Shown here: in pieces, positions 14,821-46,337 of the stretch
Position numbering within the stretch: the stretch's first letter is position 1
Layout: each line of letters starts with the position of its first letter
Source: Dehalococcoidia bacterium
Lineage (GTDB): Bacteria > Chloroflexota > Dehalococcoidia > Lucifugimonadales > UBA3495
Assembly: GCA_964291335.2 (NCBI GenBank)
Contig: OZ219748.1
Location: 609,479 to 673,478, forward strand
Length of the DNA stretch: 64,000 nt
Reading direction: 5' to 3'
Made by a program: the position numbers and the translations under genes
The notes under the pieces: model-generated
What the model saw: the letters and a program-made list of their open reading frames with translations, nothing else
What the model was told of the DNA's origin: nothing
Database searches by the model: none

Positions 14821-15008
14821 GCTAACCCCGCATTATTAAAGTTCGTGCGCCCTGAATGTAGATGGTCATTTTACTCTCTGCGGATACCTCTAGCAACCGG
14901 AGCTGCGGGCTGACAATTCTCGCCAGAGCGCCCTACCCGGCCAAGGCCGGCGTCCCGGTATGCCCGGGCTAACCCACCTGCTGCCGAGGATTATGCCCCG
15001 GGTATTCA

Positions 15009-15039
15009 CAAAAAATCAGCCCGGCATGCCCGAGCTGAT
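15009..15039 (-). terminator. Intrinsic terminator downstream of the NIPSNAP gene
   Basis: On the - strand: ATCAGCTCGG, a gcat loop, CCGGGCTGAT, followed by TTTTTTG. Confidence 0.6.
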
Positions 15040-15041
15040 CG

Positions 15042-15365
15042 CTACTGCATCGGCGAGTATTCCGTGGGACGCAGAATCATGTTGCGCACCCGGGCATTGA
15101 TGGGGCCATCCTTTTCCGTCTCGGCCCGCACTTGCTGCCAGCCCGGGTCAGCCTGAAAGGCGGCCCACTTGCTTTCCCGGTCAGCCAGGCTGTCGTAGCC
15201 CAACATATAGACCAGCTGGTTGCTGACGCCGATGTCCTCTGTCCAGAAACCGACAACGTGAATGCCGTGCTTCCGGAAGAAATCAAGAGTATGGCTGGCA
15301 AAGCGGGCATTCAAGTCCGGCAGCCGGCCGGGTATCGTTTCGTAGATACGCAATTCGTAAATCAT
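15042..15365 (-). CDS. NIPSNAP family protein
   Basis: MIYELRIYETIPGRLPDLNARF is a typical NIPSNAP N-terminus. GGGAGG lies 4 nt upstream of the ATG at 15365. Confidence 0.75.
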   Translation of the reverse strand: MIYELRIYETIPGRLPDLNARFASHTLDFFRKHGIHVVGFWTEDIGVSNQLVYMLGYDSLADRESKWAAFQADPGWQQVRAETEKDGPINARVRNMILRPTEYSPMQ

Positions 15366-15429
15366 GACGCCTCCCAAAATGGTTGCTGAACAATCTCAAA
15401 AGGACCGCAGCAAAATATGATGCCGGAAA

Positions 15430-16515
15430 TCAAAACCCGGTCAGGCGGCCCTGGTCGCCGGGCTCTTCGGCTCCTTTCCAGAAACGGCCCAGATGCTCGT
15501 AGGCATGGCGGGTAGCCATGCGTCCCCGGGGGGTGCGTTCCAGGAAACCCAGCTGCATCAGATAAGGCTCCCAAACCTCCATCACCGTGTTCGAATCCTC
15601 GCTTATTGAGGAGGCCAGGGTTTCCAGGCCCACCGGCCCGCCATTGAACTTGTCGATAATGTTATTGAGCAGCTTGTGGTCTGCTGCGTCCAGCCCCAAC
15701 TGGTCCACCCGCAACCGATCAAGGGCCTCCTGCGCCACCGCGCCGGTTATCTCGTTATCGGCCAGCACCAGCGCGTAGTCTCTGGTACGCTTAAGCAGCC
15801 GATTGGCAACGCGCGGGGTGCCCCTTGACCGGGCGGCAATCTGGGAGGCCCCCGCAGCATCGGCGGTAACGCCCAGGATAGCCGCCGACCGCTGTACGAC
15901 CAGTTCCATATCCGGCTGGTCGTAGTATTCCAGCCGGAAAACCGAGCCGAAACGGTCGCGAAGGGGCCCGCTAATCAGGGAAAAGCGGGTGGTAGCCCCG
16001 ATTAAAGTGAAGGGGCTGATACGCAGGTTTATGCTGCGCGCCGCCAGCCCTTTCCCGACCATCCAGGAAAGGAAGAAATCCTCCATGGCTGAATAAAGCA
16101 CTTCCTCTACTACCCGGTGCAGCCGATGAATTTCGTCAATAAACAGAATGTCGTCGGGCTGCAACGCAGTAAGGATGGCCGCCATATCGCCGGCGCGCTC
16201 AATGGCCGGGCCGGAGGTTACCTTGATGTTGACGCCCATTTCGTGGGCAATGATATGGGCCAGGGTGGTTTTGCCCAAACCCGGGGGGCCATAAAGTATA
16301 ATATGATCCAGCGGTTCGCCGCGCTGCCTGGCCGCCTGGATGCCAATGCTCAAGTTATCTTTGACCGGAGACTGGCCGACAAACTCGGCGAGCCGCCGCG
16401 GCCGCAGCGAAACGTCCAGCGGGACATCCTCCTGCTGGGCGGCGTCAGAGACTATTCGTTCTTGCGGCGCGGCGTTGCTTTCTAAATCAGCCAAAACGTA
16501 CCTGAAAGGCGCCAA
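15430..16515 (-). CDS. ruvB: Holliday junction branch migration helicase RuvB
   Basis: [12 protein letters not shown], Walker [18 protein letters not shown], and sensor and winged-helix regions typical of RuvB. Confidence 0.95.
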
Positions 16516-16616
16516 TGGGCGGTGGACAACGGCGCCGGAAGGCTTGCGGGCAGGAACTTCCCCTGCGGCTCATTCTAGGGTGGGCCGGTTCAAGCGTCAA
16601 GGAATGCCGCGTCAGG

Positions 16617-16764
16617 GGTATTCCCAATGCGCGTTGGTGTATCGTTCCCCCGCCCACGCGGGGATAGACCGCGAGCGGTATTCCCAATGCGTGTTGGTGT
16701 ATCGCTGCGGAGCGAAGTCCGGGGAGAGCATTAACCGGTATTCCCAATGTGTGTTGGTGTATCC
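16617..16764. repeat. 60-bp-period array: three 28-nt conserved units separated by two unique 32-nt segments (CRISPR-like geometry, no cas genes in window)
   Basis: Units GGTATTCCCAATGCGCGTTGGTGTATCG occur at 16617-16644, 16677-16704 (1 mismatch) and 16737-16764 (3 mismatches). Each has an internal hairpin CCAAT/GTTGG. The unique segments are 16645-16676 and 16705-16736. Confidence 0.7.
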
Positions 16765-16844
16765 CTTTAGGCCGGGAACCGGCCCGGGGACTGCCGGGTC
16801 GCCCGAAGCGTATCGGGCGGAACCCGGCATGCCCACCGGTCAGG

Positions 16845-18890
16845 TCAGGCGGCCTGCCGCCGCCGGTACAGATACACCCCGCCGGCAGCCAGAGCTACCA
16901 CCACCAGCCCAATTACTACCCACAGCAGCCAGTTGATGCCGCCCGGTTCTTCCGGCGGGGCCGGCGGCATCGGCGTCGGCGGTATGGCCGTCGCCGTCGG
17001 GGGCGGTACTGGCGTGGCCGTGGGTTCCACCTCGGCCAGGGCCGGGGCGGCCGTCGTGGCCGTCGACTCCGGGCGCACCGCATCCAGGGCGCGGTCCGGC
17101 AGCAGGGGCGTGGCCGTCGGCGCAGTCGTGGCCGTAGCTGTAGCTGTGGGCCGGCTGGTGGGCATCGCCGTGGCCGTGGGCTGCGCCGGCGTTGTTGCCG
17201 TGGCCGTGGGCGCTGGGGTGGCCGTTGGCGTGCGCATTGCCAACGGCGTCGGCGTCCGGGTGGGTACTGCCCGCCGGGTCGCCGTGGGAGTCCGCAGCAG
17301 CATTTCCGCCGGCAGCATGGTCGGCGTTGGCGTGCCGGTGGGCAGCGCCGGCGCTGTTGCCGTGGGCGTCCACATTGCCACCGTGGGTATGGCCGTGGGC
17401 GTCGCCGTCGGCGTGTTGGTCGGCGACGCCGGCGCGGTGGTGGCCGTCGGCGTGGGCGTGCTGGTGGCCGCTGCCACTACCCGGCGGGTCGGCGTCGGGG
17501 TCGGCATATCCGCCGGGGACGGTAGGTAGCCCTGAACCACTATGGGGTGCGGCGTATTGGTGGCTGTGGGCGTTGGCGTGTTGGTAGCCGTGGGCATTGG
17601 CGTGTCGGTGGGTGTGGGCGTGTCGGTGGCTGTGGGCGTGGGCGTGCTGGTGGCCGTGAGTGTTGGCGTGTCGGTGGGCGTGTTGGTGGCCGTGGGTGTT
17701 GGCGTGTTGGTGGGCGTGCTGGTGGCCGTGGGTGTTGGCGTGTTGGTGGCCGTGAGTGTTGGCGTGTCGGTGGGCGTGTTGGTGGCCGTGAGTGTTGGCG
17801 TGTCGGTGGGCGTGCTGGTAGCCGTGGGCGTGGGCGTGTTGGTGGGCGTGCTGGTGGCCGTGGGTGTTGGCGTGCTGGTAGCCGTGGGCGTGGGCGTGTC
17901 GGTGGGTGTGGGTGTTGGCGTGCTGGTAGCCGTGGGCGTTGGCGTGTCGGTGGGTGTGGGTGTTGGCGTGCTGGTAGCCGTGGGTGTGGGCGTGTCGGTG
18001 GGTGTGGGCGTGGGTGTATCGAAGGGCGTACTAGTCGCATGGACTACGGACCAAGGGCTATTGCCGGCGTCATTGACTGCCCGTAGCCGGAACTGGTAAT
18101 CGACCCCGTTTTCCAGCCCGGTTATAGTGTAGCTGCGGTCGGTCTCCTTGACGGTAACCACCGGGCTGCTGTCGGGCCAGCTTTCGCCCACTTTGCGATA
18201 CTGGAATTCGTACCGGGTTACCCCGGCGGTCAAGGGGACATAATGGACGGTTGCCTGCTTATCCCCGGCGTCCACTCGAGGTAATCGAGGCACCTCCGGA
18301 GGGCTCGGCGTTGAAGTGGGCGTCGGTGTGGGTGTATTTTCATACGTAGTGTCCGAAAGGGATATGGACCAAATGCTATTGCCGCCGTCATTGATCGCAC
18401 GCACCCGGAACTCGTAAGTCGTGCCAGCGTCCAGCCCGGTTATGGTGTAGCTGTTACTAGTGTCCTTGACTGTGACCGTGACGGTGGCGCCGCTGCTGGG
18501 CCAGCTTTCGCCCACTTTGCGATGCTGGAATTCGTACCGGGTTACCCCGCTAAGGACCTCATGATTGATGGTTATCTGCCGATCCCCGGCGACAGTCCCT
18601 TCGAGGGCCGGCTGAGGAGGTGGGGTCAGCGTTCCCGTCGGCGTTGGGGTGGGCGTCGGCGTATCCGTTGGCGTGCTGCCCTGGGCTTGCAGCGGTGTCG
18701 GCGACCCGGTGAAGGACAGGGTCAGTAAAAAAGGCCCGGCCAGCAGGATGACGAGCGACAGGGCCAGCCCCGGCAGGTTTCGGTCAATTCTCCGTAGATA
18801 GCCGTTCAGCCCAGCCCAAACTCGGGGGGGGGGGGGGGGGGGGGGGGTATTCATTCCGGAGCCGGGGCGGTGTCCGCCTTTATCTGCCAT
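16845..18890 (-). CDS. Cell-surface protein: N-terminal leader with poly-Pro, signal/anchor helix, two fibronectin type III domains, Thr/Pro repeat stalk, conserved C-terminal module with TM anchor
   Basis: 681 aa. [25 protein letters not shown], then [18 protein letters not shown]. Two Fn3-like units ([14 protein letters not shown]...[14 protein letters not shown] and [14 protein letters not shown]...[14 protein letters not shown]). [11 protein letters not shown] repeats. C-terminal [36 protein letters not shown] lies 7 nt upstream of the ATG. Confidence 0.85.
17545..18020 (-). repeat. Coding tandem repeat (Thr/Pro-rich, [11 protein letters not shown]-type units)
   Basis: Visible periodic gtgggcgtgttggtggccgtg-type units on the + strand. 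All six frames are open here, which creates spurious track ORFs. Confidence 0.8.
18824..18847 (-). repeat. Homopolymeric tract, G24 on + strand (C24 on coding strand), within the 5' coding region
   Basis: Counted directly: 7+10+7 G across 18824-18847. It encodes T-P7 in the leader of the 16845-18890 gene. Confidence 0.9.
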
Positions 18891-18958
18891 AGCTTACCTC
18901 GTCAGGATATTGGTTTGGTTGAAGCAGCCCTGTTCCCGTCTGCTGGTTGCGGCTATGG

Positions 18959-18991
18959 ATTTTAGCAGAGAAGTTCCGGCGGGGGAATACC
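18959..18991 (-). promoter_or_regulatory. Promoter-like module shared with the paralog: TATTCCC-N15-TGCTAAAAT
   Basis: The - strand reads GGTATTCCCccgccggaacttctcTGCTAAAAT, about 65 nt upstream of the ATG at 18890. The same architecture and spacing occur at 25399-25429. Confidence 0.4.
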
Positions 18992-19204
18992 CTGCGGCCC
19001 GGGCTTTTATTTGCTCCGGCTGGTGGGGACGCCCGGTTCCCGGGACGAAGTGGTAGTGGCGCTGGCCGCAACGGTAAGTCTGCCGGCTGCGGGAGCGTCC
19101 GTATTTGGGCCGCCAGTTGGCGCCGCAGCGGGGGCATTCCGTCCCGGAATGCTCCGGGTTGGGCCATGCTGCTGCCTCCCGGCGGTCTGATTTCACGGCG
19201 AACC

Positions 19205-19249
19205 CGGTTATACACTTTACCAACGCATGTTGGGAATGCCGCGTCAGGC
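19205..19249. repeat. Inverted, diverged copy of the 28-nt array unit plus a 16-nt exact match to 16601-16616
   Basis: TATACACtttaCCAACGCatgTTGGGAATgCC compares with the reverse complement of the array unit, CGATACACCAACGCGCATTGGGAATACC. GGAATGCCGCGTCAGG is identical at 19233-19248 and 16601-16616. Confidence 0.6.
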
Positions 19250-42820: not shown

Positions 42821-44533
42821 TCATTCCGCTGGAAAAAGCTCGTCAATCTCCCGTTCCAGCCGCTCCTTATCTGTTTCGGTCGGGTATGCGTCAACGTCTT
42901 GAACCCCACTGACCCGGCTGGTCAGTTGAGCGTAAGATTCGGATGTGCCATAGTCGCGGGTATGGATTACTACCGGCATGGGTACGGCGTGGCCGAAAAT
43001 CAGGGCTTGCTGTTTGGGGTCCAGGCGGGCCAGGATACCCCGAAGCTGGCGGCTTCCGGCCGCCCCGGATAGCACGGCTTCCACGTCCCGCTCGTTATCC
43101 AGCAGACAGGTTAAGCGCGTACCCAACTGGCTCATCACCTCCGAATCAATTCCGCTGGGGCGTTGGTCCACCACCATAAGGGTAACATTATACTTGCGCA
43201 ATTCCCGCGCAATCGTGCCGAAGGTGGTCTGACCGGCCACATCCTGATTGAGGAATTTGTGCGCCTCCTCGATGACGATTACCAGCGGCCGGGGTTCTCT
43301 GCCCCCTCCTCCCTCCGCCTTTTCTTTCAACTCGACGTAGCGGTCGCGAATACGGCGGGACAGCAGATTGCTGACCAGGATATAGGCGCTTAAATCGTTG
43401 CCCCAACGACCGAATTCCAGCACCACGTGCTTGCCCCGTTCCAGGTGCTGGAGCATGGTCTCAGCCGCATTATGCCGGCTGTTCTGGCCCAGGAAATCAA
43501 AACGGGTGAGCCGGTTCAGCCGGTTATGCAGAGAGCCCAGGGCTGCGCCATTAATTCCCAGTTCCCTGGCCAACTCCCCTCGGCATTCCCCATCCAGTTC
43601 CAGGAAAGAGCCTACCCAATTGTCGCCGAGCTTCTGCTTAAGGTTGTAAGCAGCGGAGGCGGCTACATCGGACAAGTTCAGGGTTTCCTTGAGCAGTTCC
43701 ATATCCTCCGGTTCAATTTCTCTGTACCCGATGCGCACCACCTCATCAGCTGAGGAGCCGCGCCGTCGGGAGCTTTCTTCATCCAGGGTAAAGGTGGACA
43801 CCCGGGCGGGAAAGAGCTGCTTAAGGCCTTTAACCTGCCGGCCGTGGTCTGAGTCCTGACCGCTCCAGCCGTATTCACTGTGCATATCGAACACCAGGGA
43901 GGAGGCGGTATCTCCCTGCAGAATGCCCACCAGCAGCAGCCGAGTCAAAAAGGTCTTGCCGGTGCCGCTTTTCCCGAACACGCCAATGGAACGCTTGACC
44001 AGCTCATCCAGGTCTAAACAAACCCTCGCATCCATATCCAGGGGGGCGCCAATCCAGAAATGGGTCTTATCCTCCTCGCCAAAGACCTTGGCAACATCCT
44101 GCGGGGCAGCAGTAAACACCCGGGAAAAGTGGGCCGGGATGGTCTTGGCGGCCTGCGGAGCTTCCGGGGCGTTCAGCCCCAGCGGCATAGTCAGGCTGGG
44201 CAAAGCCGACACGGCGCCATAAGCCACAGTGCCGGCAACCGCTTGACTAATCAGCGGATCGTCTGTATCCGGCGGCGTATGCCTTAACTGCGGGTCGGAA
44301 CCGTTGAGCTGCAGATCGGTTACCACCCCAAAGAAGCGGTAGCGTTCCCCCTGGATGGTTAGAAATACGCCGACCTTTATATCTTCAATTACCTTTTCCC
44401 CGGAAGGAAGCAGCCGAATATCAATCCCTTGCGCCAGGGAGCCGCCCACCACCAGGCCCCATGGCATCCCCGAGTCAGCCAGGCCACTGGCCAATGCCCC
44501 GTTCTGCTCCAGGTAGGGAAATCCGTTGGTCAT
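42821..44533 (-). CDS. HerA-like ATPase (DUF87 / FtsK-HerA superfamily, COG0433-like) with N-terminal HAS-barrel-like domain
   Basis: Walker A GVFGKSGTGKTFL, Walker B LVIVIEEAHKF, and VTLMVVDQRPSGIDSEVMSQLGTRLTCLLDNERD, which is typical of HerA. The N-terminal barrel-like segment is GLVVGGSLAQGIDIRL...VGVFLTIQGERYRFFGVVTDLQL. Confidence 0.75.
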   Translation of the reverse strand: MTNGFPYLEQNGALASGLADSGMPWGLVVGGSLAQGIDIRLLPSGEKVIEDIKVGVFLTIQGERYRFFGVVTDLQLNGSDPQLRHTPPDTDDPLISQAVAGTVAYGAVSALPSLTMPLGLNAPEAPQAAKTIPAHFSRVFTAAPQDVAKVFGEEDKTHFWIGAPLDMDARVCLDLDELVKRSIGVFGKSGTGKTFLTRLLLVGILQGDTASSLVFDMHSEYGWSGQDSDHGRQVKGLKQLFPARVSTFTLDEESSRRRGSSADEVVRIGYREIEPEDMELLKETLNLSDVAASAAYNLKQKLGDNWVGSFLELDGECRGELARELGINGAALGSLHNRLNRLTRFDFLGQNSRHNAAETMLQHLERGKHVVLEFGRWGNDLSAYILVSNLLSRRIRDRYVELKEKAEGGGGREPRPLVIVIEEAHKFLNQDVAGQTTFGTIARELRKYNVTLMVVDQRPSGIDSEVMSQLGTRLTCLLDNERDVEAVLSGAAGSRQLRGILARLDPKQQALIFGHAVPMPVVIHTRDYGTSESYAQLTSRVSGVQDVDAYPTETDKERLEREIDELFPAE

Positions 44534-45132
44534 AACTTTATCCTCCGCAAGATGACGCCCAGGCGGGCTACATTACTGGGCAACTCCGCCGCCAGGGCCC
44601 GGCCGGCCCGCACCAGGAAAGCCTGCTGGTCCGGGTGGCACAGCGCCGCTTCGCGCAAGCAGGCAACCACCACTTCATCGGCCAGCGACTGGCCGGAGTT
44701 TAACAACAGGCGCAGAAAGTCCATATTGCCGGTAAACTCGGCTACCCTGGCCGGTGAACAGCGGCTCACAAAGTCGTGGATTCGGGGGGGAACCGGCGGC
44801 AGCAGCTGACGACTTTTCCCCTGGCTGGTATGACCCGCCACCAGAGCTTCAAAGCGGGTAGTCAGCAGCCGCTCAATCTGAGGATTATCCTGGTAAACTT
44901 CGTCCACCGTGGCCGCATGCCGGCCTCGGGCCAACACCGGGCGGACGGGATCCAATGGTTCAGTGCGAACCGACTGCACCACCGCATAAACCGCAGATTC
45001 GCTTACTTCCACCAGCGAACCCAGAGGCGGCGCACCGTATAGCTCATAGCATTGAACCTGCAAACAACTCGAATCCGCCCCAATTACTTCCCCCACCCGG
45101 CGGCCAGCATCCTCCGACCGTATCTCTGCCAT
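44530..45132 (-). CDS. Hypothetical protein, translationally coupled partner of the HerA-like ATPase
   Basis: 200 aa. Its stop overlaps the ATG of the ATPase gene (4-nt overlap at 44530-44533). The N-terminal segment RVGEVIGADSSCLQVQC...LGSLVEV...VYAVVQSV resembles a small beta-barrel. GGGAGGAG lies upstream of the ATG at 45132. No family recognised. Confidence 0.55.
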   Translation of the reverse strand: MAEIRSEDAGRRVGEVIGADSSCLQVQCYELYGAPPLGSLVEVSESAVYAVVQSVRTEPLDPVRPVLARGRHAATVDEVYQDNPQIERLLTTRFEALVAGHTSQGKSRQLLPPVPPRIHDFVSRCSPARVAEFTGNMDFLRLLLNSGQSLADEVVVACLREAALCHPDQQAFLVRAGRALAAELPSNVARLGVILRRIKL

Positions 45133-45160: not shown

Positions 45161-45266
45161 AACCCGACTGTTTTCGGTGATGACTAATTATAGCCGCTCG
45201 TCCAGCGTCAGCCGGGCTATCCGGCCGGCCGCAACCCAACTGTTTTCGGTGATGACTAATTATAGC
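45161..45266. repeat. 34-bp direct repeat x2 (72-bp period) in a divergent promoter region
   Basis: AACCCGACTGTTTTCGGTGATGACTAATTATAGC at 45161-45194 and the same sequence with one mismatch at 45233-45266. Each copy carries TATAAT when read on the - strand. Confidence 0.8.
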
Positions 45267-45443: not shown

Positions 45444-46337
45444 ATGGAGATAAACACGGTAGCAATTCTCAGTCCCGGCGATATGGGCCACGCAGTAGGG
45501 CAGCGGCTTCGGGAGAATGAACTGGAAGTAATTACCTGCCTGGCGGGAAGAAGCGCGCGAACCCGGAGCCTGGCGGAAAAAGCCGGCATTCAGAATGTAG
45601 CCAGCATGGAAGAACTGGCCGCCCGCTCCGACATTATTATGTCAATGACGGTGTCGGCGGCGGCGCCAGGCCTGTGCCGGCAGGTCGCCGACGCCATACA
45701 GGCTGCCGCCGCAGCCCCTCTTTTTGCTGAGTGCAACGCTATTTCGCCTCAGTTAACCAAAGAAATGGCGCCGATAATTACCCAGGCGGGCGGGCGTTTC
45801 GTCGATGTATCCATTATCGGCGGGCCGCCCAGACCCGGCTACAGCCCCCGCTTCTACACTTCGGGCGATTGCGCCGCCGATTTTGAACAGTTGGGGCAGT
45901 ATGGGCTGGAAGTGCTTCGGCTGGATGGCGCCGTTGGTCAGGCCTCCGGCATCAAAATGTGCTATGCCGCCATGACCAAAGGAACCTCTGCCCTGCACAG
46001 TCAGCTATTAATCGCCGCCGAGTTGATGGGGTTAACCGAGCCGCTGCTGGCTGAGTTTCGCGCCGGTCAGGGCGCATCCGTGGAGCGGATGGAACGCAAT
46101 TTGCCCACTGTTCCCCCCCGCTCCCGCCGCTGGGTTAGCGAAATGGAGGAGATACGCGACACCTTCGCTTACCTGGGTATGACGCCCAACCTGTTCGAAG
46201 GCGTCGCCGATATGTATCGGTTCATTGGCAGCACGCCGCTGGGCGAGGAACTTCCTGAATCCCGCGACCGGGAGCGCACCTTCACCGAGACCGTCAGGCA
46301 ACTGAGCCGGTACGTGCCGCAGCAACAAAAGGACTGA
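45444..46337 (+). CDS. NAD(P)-dependent oxidoreductase (6-phosphogluconate-dehydrogenase-like N-domain, DUF1932-type C-domain)
   Basis: Rossmann motif VAILSPGDMGHAVG at the N-terminus and the C-terminal pattern IKMCYAAMTKGTSAL. Confidence 0.6.
   Translation: MEINTVAILSPGDMGHAVGQRLRENELEVITCLAGRSARTRSLAEKAGIQNVASMEELAARSDIIMSMTVSAAAPGLCRQVADAIQAAAAAPLFAECNAISPQLTKEMAPIITQAGGRFVDVSIIGGPPRPGYSPRFYTSGDCAADFEQLGQYGLEVLRLDGAVGQASGIKMCYAAMTKGTSALHSQLLIAAELMGLTEPLLAEFRAGQGASVERMERNLPTVPPRSRRWVSEMEEIRDTFAYLGMTPNLFEGVADMYRFIGSTPLGEELPESRDRERTFTETVRQLSRYVPQQQKD

What the first reader, a model, noticed from the sequence alone, without database searches (positions are those of the whole stretch)
16588..16764. 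CRISPR-like mini-array (28-nt units, 32-nt unique segments) whose first unique segment is itself a near-consensus type I-E CRISPR repeat
Three copies of GGTATTCCCAATGCGCGTTGGTGTATCG occur at exactly 60-bp spacing, separated by two unrelated 32-nt segments. This is the 28/32 geometry of class 1 CRISPR arrays. Each unit has a small hairpin (CCAAT-gcgc-GTTGG). The first unique segment with its flank reads GTTCCCCCGCCCACGCGGGGATAGACCG (16644-16671). That strongly resembles type I-E repeats (E. coli: GAGTTCCCCGCGCCAGCGGGGATAAACCG), including the CCCCGC/GCGGGG stem and the GGGGAT-A-ACCG tail. There are therefore two readings. One is a decayed I-E array in which one spacer-repeat unit was duplicated. 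The other is a REP/BIME-like palindromic element array that captured an I-E repeat. A degenerate inverted half-copy precedes the array (16588-16616) and forms an 8-bp hairpin with unit 1 (GGAATGCC with GGTATTCC). No cas genes are present in the window. The array lies between the surface-protein gene stop and the ruvB start.
Basis: partly seen in the sequence, partly recalled or inferred. Interest (0 to 1): 0.62.

Follow-up and report, generated by a model that had tools for sequence, protein, structure and literature searches.

The report
Stray CRISPR spacer insertions upstream of ruvB
The CRISPR-like mini-array in front of ruvB is most likely a fossil of the bacterium's own spacer-inserting enzyme hitting the end of a transposable element twice instead of the real CRISPR array, and about 40 similar single scars elsewhere in the genome suggest such misfires are common here.

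Summary

- **The unit.** It is not a CRISPR repeat. It is the terminal inverted repeat of a decayed IS1-like element family with 83 copies in the genome. Four paralogous loci carry a single copy in the same context.
- **The CRISPR system.** The genome has an apparently complete type I-E cas operon and a 467-repeat array (28-nt repeat plus 33-nt spacer) about 372 kb away.
- **Insert 1.** It is 27 nt of that exact repeat plus 6 nt.
- **Insert 2.** It is a 32/33 copy of the 3' end of a chromosomal NIPSNAP gene, and the homology stops exactly at both insert ends.
- **Genome-wide scars.** Isolated duplications with unrelated inserts pile up only at the periods of the genome's two CRISPR systems. 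About 18 other I-E-type loci sit at 60-62 nt and 22 I-C-type loci at 71-75 nt. Several inserts are traceable to other genomic sites. The duplicated I-E targets resemble the true repeat in register.

Best reading (about 0.88): two successive off-target Cas1-Cas2 integrations, a natural "neo-CRISPR". A current function is unlikely. Orientation, activity and transcription remain untested.

The parts
15430..16515 (-). ruvB (Holliday-junction helicase), the gene downstream of the mini-array on the minus strand
   Evidence: Pfam RuvB_N 1.3e-75, AAA_lid_4 and RuvB_C.
16572..16600 (-). Sigma-70-type promoter of ruvB: -35 TTGACG (16600-16595), 17-nt spacer, -10 TAGAAT (16577-16572)
   Evidence: It is the only promoter-like site in 16350-16950, with 10/12 matches; shuffles give a mean of 0.2 sites. 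Function is inferred, not shown.
16601..16608 (.). GGAATGCC, an 8-nt remnant identical to the outermost 8 nt of the inverted IS end at 19233-19240.
   Evidence: Read directly. Similar abutted inverted end fragments sit next to other copies of the unit.
16609..16616 (.). GCGTCAGG, the left copy of the 8-bp target-site duplication of the IS1-derived cargo element 16617-19240
   Evidence: The identical 8-mer lies directly outside the other inverted end at 19241-19248.
16617..16643 (+). Unit 1 (GGTATTCCCAATGCGCGTTGGTGTATC), a duplicated copy of the IS1-type terminal inverted repeat that served as pseudo-repeat
   Evidence: It folds as an inner 5-bp stem with a tetraloop plus an outer 5-bp stem, the same overall layout as the I-E repeat.
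16644..16676 (+). Insert 1 (33 nt): positions 2-28 of the genome's I-E repeat (16644-16670) plus GCGAGC. A spacer-sized piece taken from the CRISPR array itself.
   Evidence: The repeat part matches exactly. The best present-day sources match 32/33, at C1:987095-987127 and C1:981423-981455.
16677..16703 (+). Unit 2 (GGTATTCCCAATGCGTGTTGGTGTATC)
   Evidence: Its loop variant GCGT is the one found in two single-copy paralogues.
16704..16736 (+). Insert 2 (33 nt, GCTGCGGAGCGAAGTCCGGGGAGAGCATTAACC): a copy of the 3' end of a chromosomal NIPSNAP gene
   Evidence: It matches C1:1857144-1857176 (minus strand) at 32/33, E = 2e-10. The homology ends exactly at both ends of the 33 nt. The source lies in a NIPSNAP ORF, Pfam 1.2e-22.
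16737..16763 (+). Unit 3 (GGTATTCCCAATGTGTGTTGGTGTATC): the copy still joined to the original inner context (CCTTTAG...), that is, the right end of the cargo element
   Evidence: It aligns with the single unit of four paralogous loci, which share the downstream sequence.
16764..16844 (-). 3' untranslated hairpin-rich region of the surface-protein gene, shared with paralogues
   Evidence: It is 86-92% identical to at least 10 paralogous loci. No canonical terminator was called.
16845..18890 (-). Fn3 / Thr-Pro-repeat surface-protein gene, the cargo between the two inverted IS ends
   Evidence: Pfam fn3 9e-23. Paralogous cassettes with the same end arrangement lie at C1:1308134-1310814 and C1:1701121-1705598.
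19219..19240 (-). Inverted IS1-type end (GGCATTCCCAACATGCGTTGGT on the minus strand), followed inward by the IS1 5' relic
   Evidence: The IS1 assignment rests on NF033558 at E = 6e-12 on a stitched N-terminal translation and on PF03400 at E = 0.005, both below the curated cut-offs.
19241..19248 (.). GCGTCAGG, the right copy of the 8-bp target-site duplication

Best explanation
The locus is a natural 'neo-CRISPR'. The Cas1-Cas2 integrase of the genome's own type I-E system twice inserted a 33-bp prespacer into a site that is not a CRISPR repeat.

The site is the 27-bp terminal inverted repeat of an IS1-derived element that sits just upstream of the ruvB promoter. Each event made staggered nicks at the two ends of the 27-bp segment and joined the prespacer there. 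Gap repair then duplicated the 27 bp. One unit became two and then three, at a period of 60.

Both prespacers came from the cell's own DNA. One came from the CRISPR array itself (27 nt of a repeat plus 6 nt of a spacer). The other came from the 3' end of a NIPSNAP gene.

**Shown**
- The duplication-plus-insert geometry.
- The single-unit state at paralogous loci.
- The two sources, with homology confined to 33 nt for insert 2.
- Open cas1 and cas2 reading frames next to a 467-repeat array.
- Many sister scars elsewhere in the genome.

**Inferred**
- That Cas1-Cas2 was the agent.
- The order and orientation of the two events.
- That the locus is now a neutral scar. No plus-strand promoter was found, and the units are unlikely substrates for Cas6e.
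For: 1. **Geometry.** Units of 27 nt and inserts of 33 nt. The canonical array has 28-nt repeats and 33-nt spacers: 462 of 466 spacers are 33 nt.
2. **Insert 2.** It matches C1:1857144-1857176 at 32/33, and the match ends exactly at both insert boundaries.
3. **Insert 1.** It is an exact 27-nt copy of the genome's own I-E repeat plus 6 nt, 33 nt in all.
4. **Ancestral state.** Four paralogous loci have one unit in the same inner context. The 8-bp target-site duplication GCGTCAGG shows that the unit was the element's terminus.
5. **Machinery.** cas3, cse2, cas7, cas5, cas6e, cas1 and cas2 lie next to the leader of the 467-repeat array. The cas1 frame is open.
6. **Distance histogram.** Among isolated direct-repeat pairs with unrelated surroundings at distances 40-89 nt, most distances hold 0-3 pairs. 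Distance 61 holds 15 and distance 60 holds 6. After arrays are removed, distances 71-75 hold 28 pairs. These are the periods of the I-E and I-C arrays.
7. **Traceable inserts.** Five other I-E-type inserts and three I-C-type inserts also have a spacer-length copy elsewhere in the genome. One example is C1:459930-459962, which matches C1:1959669-1959701 at 33/33.
8. **Repeat-like targets.** The duplicated I-E-type targets resemble the true repeat in register. Mean identity is 14.85/28, against 10.98 +/- 1.84 for random sites. 18 of 20 reach 14 or more, against 8.6% of controls.
9. **Shape.** The unit and the I-E repeat share a length of 27-28 nt, a central stem with a 4-nt loop, terminal pairing and a GGT start.
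Against: - No orthologous empty site or polymorphic allele could be found. The intergenic region is not conserved in 40 relatives, and two metagenome scans found nothing.
- The duplication is 27 bp, not the canonical 28.
- In the plus orientation the unit shares only 9/27 positions with the repeat by direct comparison of the two sequences. It shares 14/28 in the minus orientation, so the orientation is unresolved.
- The flanks do not resemble the leader (p = 0.21).
- The traced sources share no consistent PAM.
- Only this one of 83 copies of the unit was hit, and it was hit twice. That is unexplained.
- Cas1-Cas2 activity has not been shown experimentally for this organism.
Confidence: 0.88

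Rival explanations
1. The locus is a remnant of a genuine type I-E array. The one I-E repeat at 16644-16670 would be the last survivor, and the IS-like units would be spacers or later duplications.
For: A perfect 27/28 I-E repeat is present. It is followed by exactly 33 nt (GCGAGC plus unit 2) before the next segment begins.
Against: - The segment that should be the next repeat (16704-16736) is a 32/33 copy of a NIPSNAP gene, not a degenerate repeat.
- The three units are near-identical to each other and to a family of 83 copies.
- Unit 3 continues into a context shared with single-unit paralogues.
- The flanks show no leader similarity.
Confidence: 0.02
2. The locus is a cluster of IS1 or REP-type ends made by the transposase or by recombination, for example abortive or one-ended transposition or IS-junction formation, with filler DNA captured between the ends.
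For: - The unit is an IS end.
- The left boundary of the duplication coincides exactly with the IS terminus.
- An abutted inverted end fragment lies 8 bp away.
- Such abutted ends recur at other copies.
Against: - Transposase products have inverted ends, not direct ones.
- Nothing in IS1 biology predicts two fillers of exactly 33 nt, the I-E spacer length.
- Nothing predicts that one filler would be the I-E repeat itself.
- About 18 other scars at periods 60-62 lie on unrelated, non-IS sequences that resemble the I-E repeat.
- None of the other 80 or so copies of the unit shows such a structure.
Confidence: 0.05
3. The locus is a functional mini-array or solitary-repeat unit. A plus-strand transcript would be cut by Cas6e at the embedded genuine I-E repeat. 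The result would be a crRNA-like guide (GCGAGC plus unit 2) that directs Cascade to IS1-type ends or to the promoters next to them.
For: - The embedded repeat keeps the full hairpin and the 3' handle.
- Copies of the unit lie in fixed register 14-16 nt upstream of at least 24 promoter-like sites.
Against: - No plus-strand promoter was found. The only promoter-like site points away on the minus strand.
- There is no second genuine repeat to form the 3' hairpin of a crRNA.
- The first 6 nt of the would-be guide (the seed) are locus-specific and would not match other copies of the unit.
- There is no Rfam match.
- No RNA data could be obtained.
Confidence: 0.05

Closest known systems
Non-canonical (off-target) spacer integration that generates 'neo-CRISPR' loci (Nivala, Shipman and Church 2018, Nat Microbiol 3:310). 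The paper is not held here; it is cited as summarised in bioRxiv 10.1101/148544, PMC7054753 and PMC6698737.
   Same: - A spacer-length insert is flanked by a repeat-length duplication of a non-CRISPR site.
- It depends on a resident Cas1-Cas2.
- The same site can be hit again, so a new array starts to grow.
   Different: - The published case was seen in E. coli that over-produced Cas1-Cas2. Natural evidence was described only as circumstantial, in two other species.
- Here the events are fixed in a wild genome.
- The pseudo-repeat is a transposon end.
- One spacer is the CRISPR repeat itself.
- The duplication is 27 bp, not 28.
- About 40 sister scars from two different CRISPR subtypes occur in one genome.
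Canonical type I-E CRISPR array (this genome's 467-repeat array; E. coli K-12 CRISPR as the model)
   Same: - Inserts of 33 nt.
- A repeat-length unit of 27-28 nt with a central palindrome.
- Direct orientation at regular spacing.
   Different: - The units are not the I-E repeat (9-14 of 28 positions shared).
- There is no leader and no adjacent cas genes; the cas operon is about 372 kb away.
- Both inserts derive from the cell's own DNA.
- Processing by Cas6e is unlikely.
REP/BIME elements (repetitive extragenic palindromes and their clusters)
   Different: - BIME clusters alternate in orientation and have variable linkers.
- Here three direct copies are spaced exactly 60 bp apart, with inserts copied from elsewhere.
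- The family is associated with IS1-like transposase remnants, not with a RAYT gene.
IS1-family terminal inverted repeats and 8-9-bp target-site duplications (the duplication length is established knowledge of the family, from my own knowledge)
   Same: - The unit occurs in inverted pairs 500-900 bp apart around remnants of an IS1-like transposase.
- The element at 16617-19240 has an 8-bp target-site duplication.
   Different: - The copies are decayed, and the family assignment rests on sub-threshold HMM matches.
- The element in the window carries a surface-protein gene instead of a transposase.
Casposon-origin hypothesis for CRISPR repeats (Krupovic, Koonin and colleagues; from my own knowledge, not checked here)
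   Same: A transposon terminal sequence serves as the repeated unit at which a Cas1-type integrase inserts DNA.
   Different: This is only an analogy. The IS1-type end is unrelated to casposon ends, and the integrase belongs to a fully evolved I-E system.

Membership tests
Off-target Cas1-Cas2 integration scar ('neo-CRISPR') | A spacer-length insert flanked by a direct duplication of repeat length | tested here: met
   The locus has 27-nt units and 33-nt inserts, twice. The canonical array has 28 + 33.
Off-target Cas1-Cas2 integration scar ('neo-CRISPR') | The target exists as a single undisrupted copy before integration (empty site) | tested here: inconclusive
   Four paralogous loci carry one unit in the same inner context, and the target-site duplication marks the unit as the element's end. 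No orthologous empty site was found.
Off-target Cas1-Cas2 integration scar ('neo-CRISPR') | The insert is traceable to a protospacer, with homology confined to spacer length | tested here: met
   Insert 2 matches at 32/33, and the match ends exactly at both insert ends. Insert 1 is 27 nt of the I-E repeat plus 6 nt.
Off-target Cas1-Cas2 integration scar ('neo-CRISPR') | A matching adaptation module is present in the same genome | tested here: met
   I-E cas1 (open frame) and cas2 lie next to the leader of a 467-repeat array. Enzymatic activity was not tested.
Off-target Cas1-Cas2 integration scar ('neo-CRISPR') | The event is part of a population of scars whose period equals that of the array | tested here: met
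   The histogram peaks at 61 (15 pairs) and at 71-75 (28 isolated pairs), against 0-3 at most other distances.
Off-target Cas1-Cas2 integration scar ('neo-CRISPR') | Cas1-Cas2 is shown to integrate at this site | not testable with these tools
   This needs an in vitro or in vivo integration assay.
Canonical type I-E CRISPR array | The repeats equal the system's consensus repeat | tested here: not met
   The unit shares 9/27 positions with the repeat in the plus orientation (direct comparison of the two sequences) and 14/28 in the minus orientation. It belongs to an IS-end family of 83 copies.
Canonical type I-E CRISPR array | A leader and/or cas genes are adjacent | tested here: not met
   The flanks show no leader similarity (p = 0.21). 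The cas genes lie about 372 kb away.
Canonical type I-E CRISPR array | Transcription, and processing by Cas6e into crRNAs | not testable with these tools
No plus-strand promoter was found.
REP/BIME | A dispersed short palindromic unit, mainly intergenic | tested here: met
   There are 83 copies at 3 or fewer mismatches of the 21-nt core.
REP/BIME | Clusters of units in alternating orientation with family-typical linkers, and an associated RAYT transposase | tested here: not met
   The units are in direct orientation at exactly 60-bp spacing, with inserts copied from elsewhere. The associated coding remnants are IS1-like. A dedicated search for a RAYT gene was not run.
IS1 family (identity of the unit) | Inverted terminal repeats that bracket an IS1-type transposase gene | tested here: inconclusive
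   Inverted pairs lie 500-900 bp apart around frameshifted remnants. NF033558 gives E = 6e-12 (45.8 bits, cut-off 100) on a stitched translation, and PF03400 gives E = 0.005, below its cut-off. Pfam found nothing on short fragments.
IS1 family (identity of the unit) | A target-site duplication of 8-9 bp | tested here: met
   GCGTCAGG occurs at 16609-16616 and 19241-19248.
Solitary-repeat / crRNA-like regulatory RNA | A genuine repeat followed by a guide that matches a promoter next to a PAM | tested here: not met
   The guide would be GCGAGC plus unit 2. Its seed is locus-specific, and no second target with a matching seed was seen among the copies of the unit. Expression was not tested.

The most novel reading that the evidence does not exclude
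The locus is a CRISPR array being born on a transposon end. The IS1-type inverted repeat upstream of ruvB would be a preferred pseudo-repeat that still accepts spacers. The array has reached the two-spacer stage. The embedded genuine I-E repeat could already allow Cas6e to cut a transcript. Together with about 40 single-insert scars from two CRISPR subtypes, this would make off-target integration a regular mutational force and a realistic route to new arrays with new repeats in nature.
Probability: 0.12. Interest if true: 0.85.

Novelty: new member of a known kind. Interest (0 to 1): 0.68.

Why it matters
Off-target spacer integration has been demonstrated in E. coli that over-produced Cas1-Cas2. 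For natural genomes the papers I could read describe only circumstantial evidence.

This genome offers a fixed natural record:
- one site hit twice, on a transposon end, with one spacer taken from the CRISPR array itself;
- about 40 single scars left by two co-resident systems (type I-E and type I-C);
- ten inserts in all (seven I-E-type, three I-C-type) with an identifiable source inside the same genome.

What the record allows:
- It gives an experiment-free data set on what Cas1-Cas2 accepts as a target. Resemblance to the repeat in register matters; resemblance to the leader does not.
- It gives a concrete example of how a new array could start.
- It suggests a simple period-scan that could measure the genomic cost of adaptation across prokaryotes.

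For annotation, it warns that short 'orphan arrays' with odd repeats may be integration scars.

Tried and rejected
- **Rfam.** A scan of 15000-19000 at E <= 1 found no match.
- **Tandem Repeats Finder.** It does not report the locus, because the inserts differ. This argues against simple tandem duplication.
- **Leader similarity.** For the window locus p = 0.21, and the 20 I-E-type sites show no general enrichment. I dropped the idea that a leader-like flank directs integration.
- **PAM.** The traced sources share no consistent motif. The bases before the sources are AG|G for insert 2 and for one candidate source of insert 1, but TC|C, AA|T and others elsewhere.
- **Orientation of the mini-array.** It is unresolved. 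Both inserts begin with G on either strand. The GGT start and the AGG|GGT junction favour the plus strand, and in-register identity favours the minus strand.
- **Orthologous empty site.** The 40 relatives match the window only in ruvB coding sequence and in I-E repeats. Two metagenome pattern scans gave 0 hits. The output warns that records of very near genomes may be left out.
- **Literature.** The paper of Nivala et al. 2018 (PMC5832444) is not held. I used secondary descriptions of it.
- **IS1 assignment.** Pfam found nothing on short IS fragments. The assignment rests on sub-threshold matches.
- **Restoring reading frames.** Removing the scars in silico mostly produced spurious high-GC frames. 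Only C2:106844 clearly sits at the 3' end of a real gene, a methyltransferase-like one.
- **The array as a source for its own spacers.** The main array's spacers do not themselves contain repeat sequence.

Full report
**1. What is in the sequence**

The window is C1:609479-673478 of a 3.04-Mb, two-contig genome. Earlier notes of this scan call the organism an uncultured Dehalococcoidia bacterium.

Between the start of ruvB (15430-16515, minus strand) and the stop of an Fn3 / Thr-Pro-repeat surface-protein gene (16845-18890, minus strand) lie three copies of GGTATTCCCAATG[C/T]G[C/T]GTTGGTGTATC. They start at 16617, 16677 and 16737, exactly 60 bp apart.

- The 28th base is G, G, C.
- The C is what four single-copy paralogues also have.
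- Each G is therefore the first base of a 33-nt insert.

Tandem Repeats Finder does not call the locus, because the two inserts are unrelated to each other. Simple tandem duplication is therefore excluded.

**2. What the unit is**

The core of the unit occurs 83 times in the genome at 3 or fewer mismatches.
- Many copies form inverted pairs 500-900 bp apart. These pairs enclose frameshifted remnants of an IS1-like transposase: a zinc-ribbon N-terminus and a C-terminal block ending '...KGYSKS...GLI'.
- NCBIfam 'IS1 family transposase' matches a stitched N-terminal translation at E = 6e-12. Pfam DDE_Tnp_IS1 matches at E = 0.005. Both are below the curated cut-offs, so 'IS1-like' is probable but not proven.
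- In the window, unit 3 is the right end of a 2.6-kb derivative that carries the surface-protein gene. The inverted left end is at 19219-19240. The element is flanked by the 8-bp direct repeat GCGTCAGG (16609-16616 and 19241-19248), a target-site duplication.
It belongs to the history of the transposable element, not to the array.
- Four paralogous cassettes end in a single unit followed by the same CCTTTA... sequence. The ancestral state here was therefore one unit, and 120 bp (two units plus two inserts) were added.

**3. What the inserts are**

The genome has a 467-repeat type I-E array at C1:969779-998229 on the minus strand.
- The repeat is GGTTCCCCCGCCCACGCGGGGATAGACC, and 462 of 466 spacers are 33 nt, giving a period of 61.
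- The leader abuts cas2, upstream of which lie cas1, cas6e, cas5, cas7, cse2, a 573-aa ORF in the cse1 position with no Pfam match, and cas3. The cas1 frame is open.

Insert 1 (16644-16676) is positions 2-28 of that repeat, copied exactly, plus GCGAGC. It is a 33-nt piece of the array itself. Two present-day repeat-spacer junctions match it at 32/33.

Insert 2 (16704-16736) matches C1:1857144-1857176 at 32/33 (E = 2e-10). The match stops exactly at both ends of the 33 nt. The source is the 3' end of a NIPSNAP-family gene.

Two unrelated inserts of exactly spacer length, each accompanied by one more copy of the 27-nt unit, are the product expected from Cas1-Cas2 integration: staggered joining at both ends of a repeat-length target, followed by gap repair. 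That mechanism is established knowledge of CRISPR adaptation.

**4. The locus is one of many**

I scanned the whole genome for isolated direct repeats (at least 23 of 24 nt identical, unrelated surroundings) at every distance from 40 to 89 nt, outside the main I-E array.
- Most distances hold 0-3 pairs.
- Distance 61 holds 15 pairs, distance 60 holds 6 and distance 62 holds 2.
- After the type I-C arrays are removed, distances 71-75 hold 28 isolated pairs. Curation leaves 22 scars, with duplications of about 35-38 nt and inserts of about 34-38 nt.
- These are the periods of the two CRISPR systems. The I-C array periods are 72 (74 times), 73 (63), 74 (20) and 71 (18).

After low-complexity hits are dropped, 20 period-60 to 62 repeat pairs remain. 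They include the window locus, which is counted once by its first pair, and a degenerate I-E-like pair on C2. That leaves about 18 other loci. Where boundaries are unambiguous, the typical geometry is 28 + 33.

Five of their inserts have a second copy elsewhere in the genome, confined to about spacer length. One example is C1:459930-459962, which matches C1:1959669-1959701 at 33/33. Three I-C-type inserts do as well.

The duplicated I-E-type targets resemble the true repeat in register.
- Mean identity is 14.85/28, against 10.98 +/- 1.84 for random sites scored the same way.
- 18 of 20 reach 14 or more, against 8.6% of controls.
- The I-C scars show a weaker excess, 15.3 against 13.9 +/- 1.8.

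The flanks do not resemble the leader. The window locus is the only site in the genome with two inserts.

An earlier agent of this scan had described three I-C-type scars near the I-C cas operon (note e1-3016262). My scan recovers its main example independently at C1:709523.

**5. How it most likely came about**

The I-E integrase twice used the IS end as a pseudo-repeat.

The unit and the repeat share several features:
- a length of 27-28 nt;
- a GGT start;
- a central stem with a 4-nt loop;
- pairing between the two ends.

The junction AGG|GGT at 16614-16619 equals the canonical leader-repeat junction GAAGG|GGTTCC. That favours the plus orientation, with the ruvB side as 'leader'. In-register identity is higher in the minus orientation, 14/28, against 9/27 in the plus orientation by direct comparison of the two sequences. 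I leave the orientation open.

The three units differ at one or two loop positions, and insert 2 differs from its source at one base. The events are therefore not very recent.

On function, the only promoter-like site is the ruvB promoter on the minus strand, and it points away from the array. The units are not I-E repeats, and Rfam finds nothing. I infer a neutral scar. Its one live possibility is that the embedded genuine repeat could be cut by Cas6e if the plus strand were ever transcribed.

**6. Rivals**

- **A decayed I-E array.** This is contradicted by the origin of insert 2 and by the single-unit paralogues.
- **A transposase-made cluster of IS ends.** This fits the coincidence of the duplication boundary with the IS terminus. 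It does not explain direct orientation, two fillers of exactly 33 nt, a filler that is the CRISPR repeat, or the roughly 18 sister scars on non-IS sequences.
- **A functional crRNA-like unit.** It lacks a promoter, a second repeat and any seed-matching target.

**7. Comparison with what is known, and limits**

The closest known phenomenon is non-canonical spacer integration in E. coli that over-produced Cas1-Cas2 (Nivala et al. 2018). According to a later preprint, that work offered only circumstantial evidence for two other species. The original paper is not held.

This locus is a natural member of that kind, with three unusual features: a transposon end serves as pseudo-repeat, the CRISPR repeat itself is a spacer, and the duplication is 27 bp.

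Not obtained:
- an orthologous empty site;
- a PAM;
- any direct evidence of enzymatic activity.

Noticed in passing
window 45161-45266: A type I-C-type off-target scar. A 34-nt duplication (AACCC[G/A]ACTGTTTTCGGTGATGACTAATTATAGC) flanks a 38-nt unrelated insert, at period 72. It lies in the intergenic region between the ORFs at 44530-45132 (minus strand) and 45444-46337 (plus strand).
   Followed up: partly
whole genome; in the window 16572-16643: The 21-nt core of the unit lies in fixed register with an outward-facing sigma-70-like promoter. 29 of 83 copies have such a site within 60 nt, against 0.8% of random sites. The -35 box starts 15 nt from the core in 19 cases and 14 nt in 4. The spacers between the hexamers are unrelated between copies. 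The downstream genes look like real ones: their N-termini read like rplU, lexA and a universal stress protein (assigned by eye), and ruvB follows in the window. Either these elements insert about 15 nt upstream of -35 boxes, or the motif is a promoter-upstream element. Unexplained.
   Followed up: partly
window 16617-19248: The surface-protein gene is cargo of an IS1-derived element. It is bracketed by inverted IS ends and by an 8-bp target-site duplication, GCGTCAGG. Paralogous cassettes with the same ends lie at C1:1308134-1310814 and C1:1701121-1705598.
   Followed up: partly
C1:969779-998229 compared with C1:694000-707100 (outside the window): At least 10 spacers of the I-E array overlap spacers of the I-C array. 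For example, 25 nt of I-E spacer 133 match C1:707001-707025. The two systems seem to have sampled the same invaders.
   Followed up: no
C1:969779-998229 (outside the window): The I-E array carries perfect 33/33 self-matching spacers. Spacer 323 matches C1:1940258. Spacer 398 matches C1:2066076. Spacer 465 matches a multi-copy element on C1 and C2 whose protospacer is preceded by AA|G.
   Followed up: no
C2:223006-223096 and C1:2715880-2715947 (outside the window): Two degenerate two-repeat I-E-like remnants. The repeat on C2 is AGTTTCCCCGCAGGCGCGGGGGCAGACC, 21/28 identical to the main repeat, with a 33-nt insert.
   Followed up: no
C2:106844-106933 (outside the window): An I-E-type scar at the extreme 3' end of a methyltransferase-like gene (assigned by eye). 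It replaces the last codons. Its insert is a 30/32 copy of C1:90860-90891.
   Followed up: partly
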